Origin: an uncultured Burkholderiales bacterium
GTDB lineage: Bacteria; Pseudomonadota; Gammaproteobacteria; Burkholderiales; Usitatibacteraceae
NCBI GenBank assembly: GCA_964403515.1
Contig: CAYOGL010000022.1
Location: 1,078 to 65,077 of the forward strand
DNA length: 64,000 nucleotides
Direction of reading: 5' to 3'
Positions 34,425 to 44,318 of this stretch are shown here, piece after piece. The position numbers and the translations under genes are program-made. The notes under the pieces are model-generated. The model saw only the letters and a list, made by a program, of their open reading frames with translations. It was not told where the DNA came from and ran no database searches. Numbering within the stretch: position 1 is the first letter of the stretch; each line of letters begins with the position of its first letter.

Positions 34425-34516
34425 CGTCTCCCCGGGGGTTGCGAATCGCGCTGAGGCTGATCCTCGCGCCGATTCGTTGCGAGCGCTAAAGCCAAGCGCT
34501 CGCGACCGCCGGCTCG
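34425..34516 (+). repeat. Structured repeat, copy 1: degenerate tRNA-Glu 3' end followed by two hairpins
   Basis: Aligns with 41264-41352; hairpin TTGCGAGCGCT-AAAGCCA-AGCGCTCGCGA at 34477-34505. Confidence 0.85.
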
Positions 34517-40948: not shown

Positions 40949-41194
40949 TCACGCCTTCGTTTTCGGCTTGCGGCCGGGCGTCGGCGGGGGGACGAAACCC
41001 GAGATGCGGCCTTGCCAGGCTTCGATCTGGCGCCCGTTCTCGAACTGGATCGTCCTGCACACGACGGCCTCGTGGCTTTCGGCCAGGGCGGCGAGGTGCT
41101 GCCTCACCGTGGCGAGCGGCACGCGCAGCTCCTTGGCGATCTCGAGGTCCAAGCGCTGGCCATGCTTCTTCAGGCACTGCAGGGTTTCGGTCAT
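40949..41194 (-). CDS. Small winged-helix-like protein
   Basis: LKKHGQRLDLEIAKELRVPLATVRQHL HTH pattern; basic tail PGRKPK. Confidence 0.75.
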   Translation of the reverse strand: MTETLQCLKKHGQRLDLEIAKELRVPLATVRQHLAALAESHEAVVCRTIQFENGRQIEAWQGRISGFVPPPTPGRKPKTKA

Positions 41195-41263
41195 GGGTGC
41201 TGTCCTCGAGGTGAAAAGATTGAAATCGGGTCGTGCGAGCGAAAATCAATGGCGCAAGTTGAA

Positions 41264-41352
41264 TCCCCACGGGGATTGCGAATCGCGCTGCGACTGATCC
41301 TCGCGCGATTCGTCCGAAGCGCCAAAGCCAGGCGCTTCGGACCGCCGGCCCG
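41264..41352 (+). repeat. Structured repeat, copy 2: 14-bp exact match to the tRNA-Glu 3' region plus two hairpins
   Basis: TCCCCACGGGGATT equals 44131-44144; hairpin TCCGAAGCGCC-AAAGCCA-GGCGCTTCGGA at 41313-41341. Confidence 0.85.
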
Positions 41353-41436: not shown

Positions 41437-41502
41437 CGTGGGGACCGTACAAATGCAAACGGCCCGCTGCAGCGTGCCGTGTGCATTTGTGGCGTCCCCA
41501 CG
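41437..41502. repeat. 66-bp imperfect palindrome whose right arm is the att-like tRNA-Glu copy
   Basis: 27-bp arms 41437-41463 and 41476-41502 (4 mismatches) around a CGCTGCAGCG palindromic centre. Confidence 0.85.
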
Positions 41503-41597
41503 GCGATCGGACGAAAACCCCAGAACACCAATGCTACGGGGCACAACAGTCTTTCAAATTCAAAGACTTCGCCGCCGGGCTTAAGTATTTAATTATA

Positions 41598-41825
41598 CTA
41601 CTTAAGAAGCTCCCAAGCACCCACTTTTAGTGCAGTAGCGAGCTTGTGGATGTTTTCCAGCGATATGTTCCGTTCGCCACGCTCGACTTGGCCGACATAG
41701 CTCCTATCAAGTCCGCAATTCAGCGCGAGTTGCTCCTGGGAAAAGCCCGCACCAAGTCGGAGTTCACGAACCCGATCCCCAAAGGCTTTCCGTACTCTTG
41801 CCTGCCATTTGTCAGGCTTCTGCAA
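41598..41825 (-). CDS. XRE/HTH_3 regulator (controller-protein-like)
   Basis: FGDRVRELR...SQEQLA...LDRSYVGQVERGERNISLENI.KLA.AL. Confidence 0.92.
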   Translation of the reverse strand: MQKPDKWQARVRKAFGDRVRELRLGAGFSQEQLALNCGLDRSYVGQVERGERNISLENIHKLATALKVGAWELLK

Positions 41826-41927
41826 GATAAGCGCCTGAGCTGAAAAGCGCTCATCGTCGCCGCCAGATGCCTATAGTTCCACGGACTTTAAGTACCAATT
41901 TTGTCCGGCCGGCTGCAGAATGTGTGG

Positions 41928-42101
41928 ATGAAGCGACCCCGTCTCCTGTCGATCACATCCATCGGGAAGCCGGATTACGAGCTTGCCGCTCAGGGGCTGG
42001 CACCACTCTTTGCGCGCTTCCTCAAAAAGCGCCAGGCCAAAGCGAAGACGAAGGTTCTAAGGTTTCAAGAGCGTCTCAACCACCGACAGGGACGATCGTA
42101 A
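41928..42101 (+). CDS. Possible small basic protein divergent from the XRE gene
   Basis: 57-aa ORF with an amphipathic helix (YELAAQGLAPLFARFLKK); no recognisable family. Confidence 0.35.
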   Translation: MKRPRLLSITSIGKPDYELAAQGLAPLFARFLKKRQAKAKTKVLRFQERLNHRQGRS

Positions 42102-42124
42102 GCCGCTCAGCCAAATAACCGCAG

Positions 42125-43042
42125 CTATTTAACTAATTCCCTCGCCCATAGCGACGCAGTGGTCTGCGATGTGACCTGCTCAATTCGTAGCAACAGATCA
42201 CGACGTCTTATGCATTCATTGATGAAGGACGTGATGCGGCTCTGCTCGATTCGCTCAGCGACGTTTGTGCCGGTTCCAGCCGCATCAGGGATAACGGCTT
42301 GAGACCAATTGAGCGTCATGCCAAGGGAGTCGTTCCATCTAAAGTGACTCGTTGATGTACCACCCAAAGCGGTAACGAAGTCAAAGAACACCAACATTCC
42401 GGATTGCAAGGTCTCAAGCGGAATAGTACTGAACAGGCGCACGCACATCGTCTCGATTGCGAAGGACCGCATCTGAGTTGGTGGTGCGAGGTTGGCGTTC
42501 CACGCCTTCAATAGCTTGACCAGCGGCTTGAACTTCCCGCCCGATCGCTGATTCACCTGAGTTGCCAATTGCGCGTGAATGGCTGGCGCGGAAAGGAGCC
42601 ACTTGTTTTCATTCTTGTCGGGTATCCAAAGAAAACTAGCCCTTTCGTGAGGAACCGCGGGCACCACATCGATATTCAGGTGATACAACTGCAAACGGAC
42701 CGATCTTCTTTGCCCGAACACCGAGCTTACCGGATACCGATATCGGATCGCATTCGCGAATGTGTCAAGCACTTGTTCCGGAAACGCTGCGCTTGTGCCG
42801 ACAGGTGTGGGCCACTTTCGAATATCAATGGTGAAGATGATGTCAACATCATCTATCGGCCGGATCGCCGTATCCCTCGAATAGCTTCCGCTCAGGAAAC
42901 TGCCAGTAATGCGATCGCCAATCTGCCCTGTGTTCAGCAGGTCACGGAGATTTCTTTGGCTGCCGCTAGCGGCTTCCTTCTGCAGGGCACTAGGCTCATA
43001 CGCTCCAACGACATTCCAGAGATACGTCTCAACGGAGGCCAT
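42125..43042 (-). CDS. cGAS/DncV-like nucleotidyltransferase (CD-NTase/SMODS family)
   Basis: FLSGSYSRDTAIRPIDDVDIIF (hGS-x-DhD), third acid in NIDVVPA, LVKLLKAWN, RSFAIE, IPD...TNVA C-lobe motifs. Confidence 0.9.
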   Translation of the reverse strand: MASVETYLWNVVGAYEPSALQKEAASGSQRNLRDLLNTGQIGDRITGSFLSGSYSRDTAIRPIDDVDIIFTIDIRKWPTPVGTSAAFPEQVLDTFANAIRYRYPVSSVFGQRRSVRLQLYHLNIDVVPAVPHERASFLWIPDKNENKWLLSAPAIHAQLATQVNQRSGGKFKPLVKLLKAWNANLAPPTQMRSFAIETMCVRLFSTIPLETLQSGMLVFFDFVTALGGTSTSHFRWNDSLGMTLNWSQAVIPDAAGTGTNVAERIEQSRITSFINECIRRRDLLLRIEQVTSQTTASLWARELVK

Positions 43043-43919
43043 TGACGCCCTCGGCGAACACTCTCGCGCGACGGTTTAGGACCTGTGTCTGCGCTAGTAG
43101 CTGAGCGGGGAAATTGACCGGCACAAACCATAGGAATCCGGACAATATTTCTAGCTCAGGCGCGCCTAGTCTTATTTCTTTCGCGTCGTGCGAGTACGTG
43201 TAGACCAATAGCGGGACAGGTGGCGACTTTTGCTTTAACTGCTCGACGGCCGCAGCAAGGACGCGTCTGCCTTCATCGGTGCCGTCAAACGAAAGAATGC
43301 ACAAGTTGGCAGAGCCAACGGAGAACATCTCACCGGCAGGCGGCGTAACGATATTCAAGTTCATAACGCCTGCCGAACGAAGCGCTACCTGTTCCTCTTC
43401 AAACCTGCCGCTACCCTCCGGCATGATCCAAACAACCTGTGCACTCTTGAAAGCTGCAAGGTCATCGATTTGCTCCTGAAGGTCCTGCGTCTTTTGCCGA
43501 AGCCTAACCGCCTCTCTCTCTACAACTTCCTGTGCGAGCGCATCAAAGCGCTCTCCCATTGTCTTCCGGAATTCTCGATGAGTTCTGCCAAAGAAATAGA
43601 CGAAGAGGATCGCTGCAAAGCTCAAGACCGCGACGCCAACGCCAACGAGAGAACTGAAGATCGTTATCGCTCGGTCAACCGTTTGGTTGACGCTAGAAAA
43701 TTGCCGATCTGATTGGCGCTCGAGTATTTGGCGCTCTTCACCAAGCGCCTTCCGATAGGCGTCGAAGGAGACGATGCCAGGCTGCTGATCACTTGCACCT
43801 GAGCTCGCGGACTGTGGATTTGTTGCTTGCGTAGCAACCGGCGGTGTGCGCGATGCAACCGGAAGGGCTAACGATGCAGTAACGACCGCGATTAGTGCGA
43901 GGCCTCTTCTTGGTCTCAT
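43029..43919 (-). CDS. Membrane protein: signal peptide, periplasmic coil, 1 TM, cytoplasmic coiled coil, alpha/beta (Rossmannoid/receiver-like) domain
   Basis: MRPRRGLALIAVVTASLALP; TM IFSSLVGVGVAVLSFAAILFVYFF followed by GRTHREFRK; heptads; strands VVWIM, CILSF, LLVYT; 14-nt overlap with the CD-NTase start. Confidence 0.85.
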   Translation of the reverse strand: MRPRRGLALIAVVTASLALPVASRTPPVATQATNPQSASSGASDQQPGIVSFDAYRKALGEERQILERQSDRQFSSVNQTVDRAITIFSSLVGVGVAVLSFAAILFVYFFGRTHREFRKTMGERFDALAQEVVEREAVRLRQKTQDLQEQIDDLAAFKSAQVVWIMPEGSGRFEEEQVALRSAGVMNLNIVTPPAGEMFSVGSANLCILSFDGTDEGRRVLAAAVEQLKQKSPPVPLLVYTYSHDAKEIRLGAPELEILSGFLWFVPVNFPAQLLAQTQVLNRRARVFAEGVNGLR

Positions 43920-44066
43920 TTTTTCTCCCCCGTTGACGCGAATTCTATCTCCGCTTGATATCGGGAAGTCCAGAAGCCACCGACTGACAACGCGCGGCGC
44001 TGCTCGCTGCTCAGTGCGAGTTAGAGCACGATCAAATATCGCGGAATCGTTCTGGGGTTGGCGTCG

Positions 44067-44099
44067 AAAAAAAAGGGTTAGCTTGTCAGCTAACCCTTT
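44067..44099 (-). terminator. Rho-independent terminator downstream of tRNA-Glu
   Basis: GGGTTAGC-N6-GCTAACCC stem with an 8-nt A tract on + (U tract on -). Confidence 0.85.
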
Positions 44100-44125
44100 G
44101 TCTCAATGCTGGATTTCTAGAAGAG

Positions 44126-44201
44126 TGGCGTCCCCACGGGGATTCGAACCCCGGTTATCGCCGTGAAAGGGCGGTGTCCTAGGCCTCTAGACGATGGGGA
44201 C
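44126..44201 (-). tRNA. tRNA-Glu (anticodon TTC)
   Basis: GTCCCCA/TGGGGAC acceptor stem, CT-TTC-AC anticodon loop, GGTTCGAATCC, encoded CCA; 76 nt. Confidence 0.97.

Positions 44202-44242: not shown

Positions 44243-44318
<76 letters not shown>

What the first reader, a model, noticed from the sequence alone, without database searches (positions are those of the whole stretch)
42125..43919. Atypical CBASS-like system: CD-NTase coupled to a periplasm-spanning coiled-coil/alpha-beta membrane protein in a tRNA islet
Seen: a two-gene unit with a 14-nt overlap in a low-GC islet flanked by a tRNA-Glu 3' duplication. Gene 2 has all three catalytic acids and the C-lobe motifs of CD-NTases. Gene 1 lies upstream and has a signal peptide, about 60 periplasmic residues with a coil, one TM with a positive-inside flank, a cytoplasmic coiled coil, and a ~130-aa alpha/beta domain ending PLLVYTY...RL...L.....VNFPAQLL. 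Knowledge: canonical CBASS effectors are patatin, Cap4/Cap5 nuclease-SAVED, TIR-STING/SAVED, or 2TM/4TM pore formers, usually with optional Cap2/Cap3 or Cap7/Cap6; none is recognisable here. From memory there is a bioinformatically defined NARF ('nucleotidyltransferase-associated Rossmannoid fold') family that this domain may match; I have not verified this and know of no functional study. Inference: either a membrane effector gated by the cyclic nucleotide binding the Rossmannoid domain, or the reverse, a trans-envelope sensor that activates the cyclase on phage adsorption or injection. Best candidate for an undescribed system in this window.
Basis: partly seen in the sequence, partly recalled or inferred. 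Interest (0 to 1): 0.88.

Follow-up and report, generated by a model that had tools for sequence, protein, structure and literature searches.

The report
CBASS cyclase with receiver-fold membrane effector
A small mobile islet next to a tRNA gene carries a two-gene anti-phage-type alarm module, a cGAS-like signal-making enzyme plus a rare membrane protein whose relatives also sit beside type III CRISPR systems, which makes that protein a likely, still untested, signal-triggered membrane killer.

Summary
Two minus-strand genes overlap by 14 nt: 43029-43919 (296 aa) and 42125-43042 (305 aa). They lie in a 2.6-kb low-GC islet bounded by a direct repeat of the tRNA-Glu 3' end. The islet is absent from 30 related genomes.

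Gene 2 is a SMODS/CD-NTase. Its nearest solved relatives are CdnD/CdnC enzymes; the best match makes cA3.

Gene 1 has a signal peptide, a short periplasmic helix, one TM segment, an amphipathic cytoplasmic helix and a C-terminal domain. That domain is a degenerate receiver (REC) fold. It is not CARF, SAVED, STING or TIR, and no 'NARF' family could be found.

Gene 1 belongs to a rare family (113 clusters at 50% identity) with no Pfam or NCBIfam model. I found 11 loci with the same effector-then-cyclase pair. Six other members sit in type III CRISPR loci, and the two contexts interleave on the tree. The family weakly matches PADLOC's type III accessory membrane models and fits the published, untested description of Cam2.

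Best reading: a type I CBASS-like module whose cyclic oligonucleotide, probably a trinucleotide, gates this membrane effector. The reverse 'envelope sensor' idea is disfavoured. It is a new variant of a known kind. Nothing here is tested experimentally.

The parts
43029..43919 (-). Gene 1: 296-aa bitopic membrane protein, the putative cyclic-oligonucleotide-gated effector (Cam2-like family).
   Evidence: ORF. The family has 113 clusters. AF2 mean pLDDT is 87. 11 SMODS-paired and 6 type III CRISPR-linked relatives were found.
43851..43919 (-). Gene 1 residues 1-23: Sec-type signal peptide (n-region MRPRRG, h-region LALIAVVTASLAL, small residues at 18-22). Whether it is cleaved is inferred.
   Evidence: Hydropathy and family N-termini with classic AxA|Q sites, for example SVNA|Q, SIA|Q, ESA|Q, IYA|Q. 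AF2 helix 3-17.
43671..43850 (-). Gene 1 residues 24-83: periplasmic part. It has a disordered Pro/Ser/Thr-rich linker, then an amphipathic helix with the family motif E62-R63-x2-L66-E67-x-Q69-x2-R72.
   Evidence: pLDDT is below 50 for 28-50, and the helix starts at 52. R63, L66 and Q69 are conserved in 81-85% of 59 members, in both CBASS- and CRISPR-linked ones. Hydrophobic periodicity is 3.6.
43590..43670 (-). Gene 1 residues 84-110: single transmembrane helix, followed by a positive-inside cluster (R112, H114, R115, R118, K119).
   Evidence: Kyte-Doolittle maximum at 81-99. A second hydrophobic segment at the same place appears in every family member. It is part of the continuous AF2 helix 52-158.
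43446..43589 (-). Gene 1 residues 111-158: cytoplasmic amphipathic helix that links the TM segment to the sensor domain. A coiled coil is inferred.
   Evidence: AF2 helix. Conserved hydrophobic positions 117, 121, 125, 133, 140, 144, 147, 151, 154 and 157 show 3-4 spacing.
43032..43445 (-). Gene 1 residues 159-296: degenerate receiver (REC)-fold domain, the putative nucleotide sensor. Conserved residues are W164, G184, D/N205, S210, Y240, T241, N269 and P271, at the C-terminal ends of the beta strands.
   Evidence: AF2 domain model: pLDDT 86.9, pTM 0.82. Foldseek top hits are receiver domains: 4qpj_D, AmiR, AdeR, PhoB, VbrR. hhalign against REC: 75%, E 2.5e-5. The REC phospho-Asp aligns with S210 and T87 with T241. 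No Pfam Response_reg hit.
42125..43042 (-). Gene 2: 305-aa minimal CD-NTase (SMODS) with G52-S53, D65-x-D67 and D125. It is translationally coupled to gene 1 by a 14-nt overlap.
   Evidence: Pfam SMODS 6.3e-24, PADLOC Cyclase 1e-38, NCBIfam CBASS_cyclase_b 2e-37 (129 bits, below the 200-bit cut-off). Nearest PDB chains: B. cereus CdnD 9sa4 at 7.9e-22, then 6p8u/6p82 at 1e-15 and 7ljl. It is the only SMODS gene in the genome.
41598..41825 (-). 75-aa Xre/C-protein-like HTH gene, 300 bp downstream of the cyclase inside the islet. It may be an islet or operon regulator. Its link to the pair is unproven.
   Evidence: Pfam HTH_3 1.5e-14. PADLOC Control_protein 2e-23 and capH 1.3e-12. HTH_3 genes also lie near the pair in three other loci.
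44124..44144 (.). Proximal direct repeat, which is the true 3' end of tRNA-Glu (att-like).
41488..41508 (.). Distal direct repeat, GTGGCGTCCCCACGGCGAT, a degenerate copy of the tRNA-Glu 3' end. It marks the far border of the 2.6-kb islet.
   Evidence: Alignment with the empty site of G002.
44126..44201 (-). tRNA-Glu(ttc), the integration target.
   Evidence: ARAGORN.
44072..44099 (-). Terminator-like hairpin just after tRNA-Glu, at the islet's proximal end. It would insulate the operon from tRNA read-through.
   Evidence: a 12-bp stem followed by a T run.

Best explanation
This is a self-contained two-gene defence module of the CBASS type I kind (cyclase plus effector, no Cap2/Cap3 or HORMA/TRIP13). 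It was acquired on a small islet inserted at the 3' end of tRNA-Glu.

On phage infection, by an unknown trigger, the CD-NTase makes a cyclic oligonucleotide. The product is most likely a cyclic trinucleotide such as cA3. This signal binds the cytoplasmic receiver-fold domain of the membrane protein, probably in an oligomer. The change passes along the continuous amphipathic helix that runs from the cytoplasm through the membrane into the periplasm. The inner membrane is then opened or disrupted, which causes depolarisation, growth arrest or death, and loss of phage yield.

The same effector family is used as an accessory effector by type III CRISPR-Cas systems. It is therefore a portable 'signal in, membrane damage out' module, like NucC or TIR-SAVED.

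Shown here: the gene structure, the CD-NTase identity and catalytic motifs, the REC-like fold without a phospho-acceptor Asp, the conserved pairing, the dual CBASS/CRISPR context and the islet insertion.

Inferred only: the defence function, the ligand identity, binding by the REC-like domain, oligomerisation, pore formation and signal-peptide cleavage.
For: (1) Gene 2 is a CD-NTase with intact catalytic motifs.
(2) The pair is conserved in 11 independent loci. The effector is always immediately 5' of the cyclase: the window (-14 nt), P0002's contig (-14), L001, L002, L007 (0), L018/19 (-4), L020/21 (+9), L025 (-8), L048, L049 (+1) and L050.
(3) Six other family members lie in type III CRISPR loci: L008, L011/12, L013, L014/15, L022 and L026. 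In L013 the Cas10 has GGDD and shows no HD in its first 60 residues, and the contig annotation lists no other recognisable effector.
(4) On the family tree the two contexts interleave. Well-supported branches force at least two switches. The sensor-domain residues W164, G184, S210, Y240, T241, N269 and P271 are shared by both groups.
(5) The C-terminal domain has a REC fold with the phospho-Asp replaced by Ser, so it is not a two-component receiver.
(6) The nearest solved cyclases are CdnD/CdnC-type. The best hit is B. cereus CdnD, which makes 3',3',3'-cA3 (PMC13424991). Cam2 was independently predicted to be cA3-activated (PMC11229360).
(7) The genome has one SMODS gene and no Cas10, so the adjacent cyclase is the only candidate signal source.
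(8) The contexts are mobile or defence-related: a tRNA islet here; Tn7-like transposon cargo beside a Schlafen-like gene in L049; next to PDC-S18, a RelE/HTH pair, a ResIII helicase and a ubiquitin-like E1/E2 set in L007.
Against: There is no experimental evidence for any member of this effector family, including Cam2. Nucleotide binding by a REC fold has never been demonstrated.

The clade assignment of the cyclase rests on nearest PDB neighbours at only 1e-15 to 1e-22, not on a phylogeny. The NCBIfam CBASS cyclase models score below their cut-offs (129 against 200 bits).

The cA3-making cyclases I could check work with accessory proteins: B. cereus CdnD is part of a type II system with Cap2/Cap3 (PMC13424991). 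From my own knowledge, CdnC/CdnD-type enzymes are usually regulated by HORMA/TRIP13 or Cap2/Cap3. No such genes are in this islet.

The conserved periplasmic motif has no role in a simple cytoplasmic-signal model. The hhalign REC match is only moderate (75%), and the Foldseek E-values are weak (about 1e-3).
Confidence: 0.68

Rival explanations
1. Reverse wiring. The bitopic protein is a trans-envelope sensor that detects phage adsorption, injection or envelope damage through its periplasmic helix. It then activates the cyclase through the receiver-like domain. The cyclic nucleotide acts on a target encoded elsewhere.
For: The periplasmic helix carries the best-conserved motif of the N-terminal half (R63, L66, Q69), and the effector model does not explain it. 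Tight translational coupling would suit a stoichiometric complex.
Against: The same family sits in type III CRISPR loci, where infection is sensed by crRNA and no envelope sensor is needed. The module would then have no effector: no other gene is conserved with the pair in the 11 loci. The genome holds no second SMODS gene and no Cas10; other known nucleotide-effector families were not searched genome-wide.
Confidence: 0.07
2. Inverted (guard, Panoptes-like) logic. The cyclase makes its nucleotide constitutively, and this holds the membrane effector shut. Phage sponges or nucleases that deplete the signal then release the effector.
For: It is a minimal two-gene unit with no visible activator or accessory regulator for a cyclase whose checked relatives use accessories. 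A precedent exists in a membrane effector held off by a decoy nucleotide (Panoptes, PMC12657218).
Against: From my own knowledge, Panoptes uses an mCpol-type cyclase and a 2TM-SAVED effector, not a SMODS CD-NTase. In type III CRISPR loci cOA is made only on target recognition, so CRISPR-linked relatives must be activated by ligand, not inhibited. The shared pocket residues suggest the same logic in both contexts.
Confidence: 0.07
3. It is not a defence system. It would be a housekeeping or envelope-stress second-messenger pair in which the nucleotide regulates a membrane function such as transport or cell-envelope homeostasis.
For: There is no direct evidence of anti-phage function. Receiver-like domains are general signalling modules.
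Against: It is strain-specific and absent from 30 relatives. It is horizontally acquired at a tRNA, with low GC. It rides on a Tn7-like element and sits in defence islands elsewhere. Relatives are embedded in CRISPR-Cas operons.
Confidence: 0.05
4. It is an inactive relic: the last cargo of a decayed integrative element that has lost its integrase, and no longer expressed or functional.
For: No integrase or other island genes remain in the 2.6 kb. The distal repeat is degenerate (71%). No sigma-70-like promoter was found by the simple scan. Expression could not be tested.
Against: Both ORFs are intact. Every family-conserved residue and catalytic residue is present except D205, which is N here. 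The RBS and the translational coupling are preserved.
Confidence: 0.08

Closest known systems
Type I CBASS with a membrane effector (Cap15/S-2TM-beta-barrel, Cap14 2TM-SAVED, TM-STING, and the catalogue classes '1TM/2TM/4TM')
   Same: It is a two-gene cyclase plus membrane-effector operon without Cap2/Cap3 or HORMA/TRIP13. The cyclase is a SMODS CD-NTase, and the context is mobile or a defence island.
   Different: The sensor domain has a REC fold. It is not SAVED, STING or a beta-barrel. The protein has a signal peptide and a conserved periplasmic helix (type I bitopic topology). The window protein hits no PADLOC CBASS effector model, and only 2 of 59 family members touch the '1TM' model PDLC00664, at 0.003. 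Gene order is effector first.
Cam2, CRISPR-associated membrane protein 2 (Hoikkala et al. 2024, PMC11229360). It is a bioinformatic prediction only.
   Same: It has an N-terminal TM helical part and a C-terminal REC-like domain without a partner kinase. It was predicted to be a cA3-activated membrane effector. CRISPR-linked members of the family found here sit in type III loci, one of them with a cyclase-positive Cas10 that lacks an evident HD motif. That is the type of locus from which Cam2 was defined.
   Different: The window gene is paired with a CD-NTase, and its genome has no Cas10. A CD-NTase association is not mentioned in the Cam2 passages of that paper that I read. The paper's Cam2 passages do not mention a signal peptide or periplasmic motif.
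Cam1, Csx23, CRISPR Cap1 and Chp1 (cA4-gated type III CRISPR membrane effectors; PMC10808066, PMC11014256, PMC12642688, bioRxiv 10.64898/2026.08.05.743128)
   Same: These are TM helices fused to a cytoplasmic cyclic-oligoadenylate sensor. The oligomer opens or depolarises the membrane on ligand binding. This is the mechanistic template used here.
   Different: Their sensors are CARF, CARF-like or a Csx23-specific fold. There were no Pfam or PADLOC CARF hits and no such structures among the Foldseek hits. Their ligand is cA4, whereas a trinucleotide is inferred here.
NucC, TIR-SAVED and SAVED-CHAT (effectors shared between CBASS and type III CRISPR)
   Same: One effector family serves both a CD-NTase and a Cas10 signal generator. 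For NucC and SAVED-CHAT the shared ligand is cA3 (PMC11229360).
   Different: Those are soluble enzymes (nuclease, NADase, protease) with solved ligand complexes. This one is a membrane protein with an unproven sensor.
CdnD/CdnC-type CD-NTases (B. cereus CdnD 9sa4; 6p8u and 6p82; 7ljl cAAG synthase)
   Same: These are the best sequence matches among solved structures, with the same GS...DxD...D core. They are trinucleotide synthases.
   Different: Similarity is only 1e-15 to 1e-22 and covers the N-terminal 200 residues. B. cereus CdnD works with Cap2/Cap3 (PMC13424991), and no accessory gene is present here. At 305 aa this enzyme is at the small end of the family.

Membership tests
CBASS (type I) | CD-NTase/SMODS cyclase with GS...[DE]x[DE]...[DE] catalytic residues | tested here: met
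   Pfam SMODS 85.5 bits against a cut-off of 26.5. PADLOC Cyclase 1e-38. G52-S53, D65, D67 and D125 are present and conserved in the partner cyclases.
CBASS (type I) | Effector gene in the same operon, conserved with the cyclase | tested here: met
   11 loci hold the same adjacent pair, with a gap of -14 to +25 nt.
CBASS (type I) | No Cap2/Cap3 (E1/E2/JAB) or HORMA/TRIP13 accessory genes in the operon | tested here: met
   The islet 41509-44123 holds only the HTH gene, the cyclase and the effector.
CBASS (type I) | Effector belongs to a recognised CBASS effector or sensor family (patatin, Cap4/Cap5, NucC, TIR, SAVED, STING, Cap15, SLATT, catalogued TM classes) | tested here: not met
   There is no Pfam, NCBIfam or PADLOC CBASS-effector hit for the window protein. 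The only hit is PADLOC C3a59 (a type III CRISPR accessory model) at E 0.01. PDLC00664 '1TM' is hit by 2 of 59 members at 0.003.
CBASS (type I) | Cyclase-dependent anti-phage protection | not testable with these tools
   This needs a phage challenge of the cloned pair in a laboratory host.
Cam2 (type III CRISPR membrane effector) | N-terminal TM helical region plus C-terminal REC-like domain, with no partner histidine kinase | tested here: met
   AF2 models and Foldseek. hhalign against REC. No kinase gene is in the islet.
Cam2 (type III CRISPR membrane effector) | Encoded in a type III CRISPR-Cas locus with a cyclase-active Cas10 | tested here: not met
   The window genome has no Cas10, and the partner is a CD-NTase. 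The feature is met by six relatives of the same family. The L013 Cas10 has GGDD.
Cam2 (type III CRISPR membrane effector) | Match to the authors' Cam2 HMM or sequences | not testable with these tools
   The HMMs are on GitHub/Figshare only, and no sequence is in the held supplements.
Canonical response-regulator receiver (Pfam PF00072) | Acidic pocket and phospho-acceptor Asp at the end of beta3, Thr/Ser at beta4, Lys at beta5 | tested here: not met
   No PF00072 hit. In the hhalign register the phospho-Asp column is S210 and the Lys column is V268, next to the conserved N269. Only the beta4 Thr (T241) is kept.
CARF / SAVED / STING / TIR sensor or effector domains | Profile or fold match to the domain | tested here: not met
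   No Pfam or PADLOC hit to these domains. None is in the top 50 of the domain-only Foldseek search. A single TIR chain (TcpB, TMt 0.54) appeared in the full-length search.
CD-NTase clade C/D (trinucleotide synthases) | Phylogenetic placement within the clade, and a cyclic trinucleotide product | tested here: inconclusive
   The nearest solved chains are CdnD/CdnC-type: 9sa4 at 7.9e-22, 6p8u/6p82 at 1e-15, 7ljl at 5e-8. A CdnE-type chain scores 7e-3. No reference tree was built, and the product is unknown.
CapH/CapP-regulated CBASS | CapH HTH repressor together with a CapP metallopeptidase next to the operon | tested here: not met
   The HTH gene 41598-41825 hits capH at 1.3e-12 but hits R-M control proteins better (2e-23). 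No CapP-like gene is in the islet.
   Full-text search of 8.4 million papers found no such term. No Pfam or NCBIfam model matches the domain.

The most novel reading that the evidence does not exclude
The degenerate receiver (REC) fold of this family is a genuinely new class of cyclic-oligonucleotide receptor, probably for a cyclic trinucleotide, outside CARF, SAVED, STING and the Cap15 barrel. It gates an unusual signal-peptide-processed, single-pass coiled-coil membrane effector. The conserved polar periplasmic helix of that effector (E62/R63/E67/Q69/R72) would form part of the gate or pore. The whole module has been exchanged at least twice between CD-NTase operons and type III CRISPR-Cas loci.
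Probability: 0.38. Interest if true: 0.75.

Novelty: new variant of a known kind. Interest (0 to 1): 0.57.

Why it matters
If the reading is right, three things follow.

1. It gives independent genomic support for the untested prediction that Cam2-type TM-REC proteins are cyclic-trinucleotide-activated effectors. Here the same family is hard-wired to a CdnD/CdnC-like cyclase, not to Cas10.
2. It would add the receiver domain, the most common bacterial signalling fold, to the short list of cyclic-oligonucleotide sensors.
3. It offers a compact, experimentally tractable two-gene system (1.8 kb) for asking how a ligand bound in the cytoplasm opens a single-pass membrane protein, and what the conserved periplasmic segment does.

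Practically, current defence catalogues would call this locus an orphan cyclase. PADLOC has no CBASS effector model for this protein, and Pfam and NCBIfam have none at all. The family alignment made here could close that gap.

Tried and rejected
- Word-indexed homologue searches found almost nothing: 3 proteins each. The exhaustive profile search was needed.
- The three Methanosarcina 'hits' (L003-L005) cover 60 residues at 29% identity. In L005, the one I checked, the match is out of frame with the ORF there, so I treated all three as chance.
- tblastn against plasmids and a viral-contig scan found no relative.
- A search for the PADLOC CBASS '1TM' effector model PDLC00664 in 401 genomes found nothing, including the controls. 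It therefore gave no comparison set.
- PDB sequence searches with the effector profiles gave only noise-level hits such as FrzS receiver, KcsA and designed Rossmann folds. Foldseek against the viral library gave only generic flavodoxin-like folds.
- The third gene seen after the cyclase in two relatives is a separate candidate system in L007, PADLOC PDC-S18 at 4e-133. The 342-aa gene on P0002's contig could not be read. No remnant of the L007 gene is in the window.
- Cyclase and effector pairwise identities do not correlate across six pairs (r = 0.02). This is too few pairs, all at similar distances, to test co-evolution.
- The 'NARF' recollection was rejected: no literature and no model.
- NCBIfam has no model for any of the 59 members.
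Full report
OBSERVATION

Gene 1 is 43029..43919 (296 aa) and gene 2 is 42125..43042 (305 aa). They overlap by 14 nt. A GGGGGAG ribosome-binding motif precedes the gene 1 ATG.

The segment 41500-44250 has 53-56% G+C against 63-71% on both sides. tRNA-Glu(ttc) lies at 44126-44201 and tRNA-Ala at 44243-44318, both on the minus strand. The 3' end of tRNA-Glu (44124-44144) is repeated at 41488-41508, with a further partial copy at 41257-41277.

I tested the islet idea directly. The 2.6-kb segment is absent from all 30 related genomes searched, 18 of them in the same genus. In one same-genus genome (G002) the small wHTH gene that corresponds to window 40956-41194 lies 218 bp from tRNA-Glu. In the window the distance is 2.9 kb. 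So this is an insertion at the tRNA 3' end, bounded by the direct repeat GTGGCGTCCCCACGG(C/G)GAT. No integrase is left.

THE CYCLASE

Gene 2 matches Pfam SMODS (6.3e-24, well above the cut-off) and PADLOC 'Cyclase' models (best 1e-38). It also matches NCBIfam CBASS_cyclase_b (2e-37, 129 bits), though this is below the 200-bit equivalog cut-off. G52-S53, D65-x-D67 and D125 are present and are conserved in five partner cyclases from other loci.

Among solved structures the best matches are:
- B. cereus CdnD (9sa4, 7.9e-22);
- 6p8u/6p82 (1e-15), which from my own knowledge are the CdnD/CdnC structures of the HORMA-type systems;
- the cAAG synthase 7ljl/7d48 (5e-8).

A CdnE-type chain scores only 7e-3. 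B. cereus CdnD makes 3',3',3'-cA3 (PMC13424991). A cyclic trinucleotide product is therefore my inference. No reference phylogeny was built and no product is known.

THE MEMBRANE PROTEIN

No Pfam or NCBIfam model matches gene 1. PADLOC gives only a weak hit (E 0.01, residues 200-276) to 'C3a59, trans-membrane'.

Word-indexed searches found just two relatives. An exhaustive profile search of 1.84 billion cluster representatives found 113 clusters (72 at E <= 1e-10). Most full-length ones are about 255-340 aa with the same layout.

AlphaFold2 on a 59-member alignment gave a confident model with mean pLDDT 87:
- an N-terminal hydrophobic helix (3-17);
- a disordered Pro/Ser-rich stretch (28-50);
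- one uninterrupted helix 52-158;
- an alpha/beta domain 161-294.

Hydropathy places the single TM segment at about 84-110, followed by a cluster of basic residues. Most family N-termini are textbook Sec signal peptides with AxA|Q sites. The mature protein is therefore predicted to be type I bitopic: about 60 periplasmic residues, one TM segment, and a cytoplasmic C-terminus. Both the periplasmic and the cytoplasmic parts of the long helix have a hydrophobic stripe with about 3.6-residue periodicity. This fits an oligomeric coiled coil that continues through the membrane, which is an inference.

WHAT THE C-TERMINAL DOMAIN IS

Foldseek with the full model gave only weak, generic three-layer alpha/beta hits. 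I therefore modelled the last 150 residues alone from 13 locus-derived sequences (pLDDT 86.9, pTM 0.82) and searched again.

The top of the list is now dominated by receiver domains. It includes 4qpj_D (TM 0.63), AmiR, AdeR, Rcp1, WspR, PhoB, MicA, XynC, VbrR, YycF, HemR and MtrA. No CARF, SAVED, STING or TIR structure is in the top 50.

A profile-profile comparison of the family's C-terminal domain with 40 receiver domains from this same genome gave 75% probability (E 2.5e-5) over 103 columns, in the expected register. The phospho-acceptor Asp column is S210, the beta4 Thr is kept (T241), and the beta5 Lys-Pro-Phe aligns with V268-N269-F270.

The family-wide conserved residues are W164, G184, D205 (N in the window), S210, Y240, T241, N269 and P271. 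They all sit at the C-terminal ends of the strands, on the face that forms the active site in true receivers. So the domain is a degenerate, non-phosphorylatable REC fold with a conserved pocket.

GENOMIC CONTEXT OF THE FAMILY

This is the most informative result. I found eleven independent loci with the same pair, effector immediately followed by a SMODS cyclase of about 305 aa:
- the window;
- P0002's metagenome contig, also with a 14-nt overlap;
- Roseateles saccharophilus DSM 654 (L001) and a betaproteobacterial MAG (L002);
- L007, L018/19, L020/21 and L025;
- L048, L049 and L050.

Junctions range from -14 to about +25 nt. No third gene is conserved. The gene after the cyclase in L007 is a separate candidate defence gene, PADLOC PDC-S18 at 4e-133, and there is no remnant of it in the window.

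The neighbourhoods are mobile or defence-rich. In L049 the pair is the first cargo behind Tn7-like TnsB/C/D genes and is followed by a Schlafen-AlbA_2 gene. In L007 it lies between a ResIII helicase, PDC-S18, a RelE/HTH pair and a ubiquitin-like E1/E2 set.

Six other family members lie inside type III CRISPR-Cas loci: P0020, P0030, P0050, P0067, P0074 and P0080. They sit directly after Cmr/RAMP genes or next to Cas6 or RT-Cas1. In L013 the Cas10/Cmr2 has a GGDD cyclase motif and shows no HD in its first 60 residues. The contig annotation lists no other recognisable effector.

31 of 59 members hit PADLOC C3a59. 20 hit C3a55, and 20 hit 'Mem_02, membrane protein (2TM) with a globular domain'. 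All three sit among PADLOC's type III CRISPR accessory models.

On a maximum-likelihood tree the CD-NTase-linked and CRISPR-linked members interleave, and well-supported branches force at least two switches of partner. The pocket residues and the periplasmic motif are shared by both groups. The window's genome has one SMODS gene and no Cas10.

INTERPRETATION

A protein family that is exchanged between two unrelated cyclic-oligonucleotide generators is most simply the receiver of that signal, that is, an effector. In one context the generator is the only conserved partner. In the other context the sensing of infection is done by crRNA.

The architecture matches the published, purely bioinformatic description of Cam2 (Hoikkala et al. 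2024, PMC11229360). That description is an N-terminal TM region plus a C-terminal REC-like domain in type III loci, with no kinase, predicted to bind cA3 because of co-occurrence with NucC and SAVED-CHAT. I could not test sequence membership because no Cam2 sequence or HMM is available here. The link is therefore 'fits the description', not 'is a member'.

The CdnD/CdnC-like partner found here is independent circumstantial support for a trinucleotide ligand. The mechanistic template comes from Cam1, Csx23, CRISPR Cap1 and Chp1. In these, cA4 binding to a cytoplasmic sensor oligomer opens or depolarises the membrane (PMC10808066, PMC11014256, PMC12642688). By analogy, ligand binding to the REC-like domains would be transmitted along the continuous helix to the TM bundle.

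The conserved polar periplasmic motif (E62, R63, E67, Q69, R72) remains unexplained. It may be an oligomerisation cap, a gate or a pore vestibule.

RIVALS

The rivals are reverse wiring (0.07), Panoptes-like inverted logic (0.07), non-defence signalling (0.05) and an unexpressed relic (0.08). None is excluded experimentally.

COMPARISON AND NOVELTY

As a system this is CBASS type I in layout and in its cyclase. It fails one membership feature: its effector is not in any recognised CBASS effector family or catalogue model, so PADLOC would report an orphan cyclase.

Earlier notes of this scan report other CBASS operons with small receiver-like membrane effectors that are shared with type III CRISPR and classed as '1TM'. 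I treated these as leads only. Here the '1TM' model PDLC00664 is touched by just 2 of 59 members at 0.003 and not by the window protein. So this is at most a distant relative of that class, and it is distinguished by the signal peptide and periplasmic helix.

No paper in the searchable library reports an experiment on a REC-fold cyclic-nucleotide effector, or a CD-NTase-Cam2 pairing.

I rate it a new variant of a known kind. It is of moderate-to-good interest mainly because it makes the 'REC domain as cyclic-oligonucleotide receptor' hypothesis directly testable in a 1.8-kb two-gene unit.

Noticed in passing
window 41598-41825 (-): A 75-aa Xre-type HTH gene inside the islet, 300 bp downstream of the cyclase. 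Its best PADLOC hits are R-M 'control proteins' (2e-23) and capH (1.3e-12), yet the islet holds no R-M genes and no CapP. HTH_3 genes also lie near the pair in three other loci (P0002's contig, L018, L020).
   Followed up: partly
window 40949-41194 (-): An 81-aa winged-HTH-like ORF (weak HTH_40/HTH_20 hits). It is conserved at 86% DNA identity next to tRNA-Glu in G002 but absent at that site in G004. It may be the remnant of an older insertion at the same tRNA.
   Followed up: partly
window 34425-34516 and 41264-41352: Two copies of a 90-95-bp element, about 85% identical. Each begins with a look-alike of the tRNA-Glu 3' end (TCCCCACGGGGATT). One copy sits just outside the islet's distal repeat. 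This was already flagged by another first-stage note, and I only confirmed the alignment.
   Followed up: partly
L049 116-8999 (metagenome contig Ga0179594_10000045): The effector-cyclase pair is the first cargo behind Tn7-like transposition genes (Mu-transposase C, TniB/AAA_22, TnsD/TniQ). It is followed on the other strand by a weakly DUF5677-like gene and a Schlafen AlbA_2 gene, so the module appears to travel as Tn7-like cargo.
   Followed up: partly
L007 155-10034: A defence island surrounds the pair: a 941-aa ResIII helicase, a full-length PADLOC PDC-S18 gene (4e-133), a RelE-like/HTH pair and a Multi_ubiq/Prok-E2/ThiF (ubiquitin-like conjugation) set.
   Followed up: partly
L014 3119-5024, L015 1635-3540, L026 1783-3749: In three type III-B loci with RT-Cas1, a 167-182-aa gene with a faint or weak RDD-family hit lies upstream of the RT gene and downstream of the family member (with one small ORF between them in L026). 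It may be a second conserved membrane component of these CRISPR loci.
   Followed up: no
L002 7878-9729 (MAG CAWDWW010000025.1): Both the effector and the cyclase are split into two ORFs each by frameshifts in this MAG. This is either assembly error or real decay, and I could not distinguish the two.
   Followed up: no
L003-L005 (Methanosarcina contigs): tblastn matches to the last 60 residues of the effector at 29% identity. In L005, the one checked, the match is out of frame with the ORF there. I treated all three as chance.
   Followed up: yes
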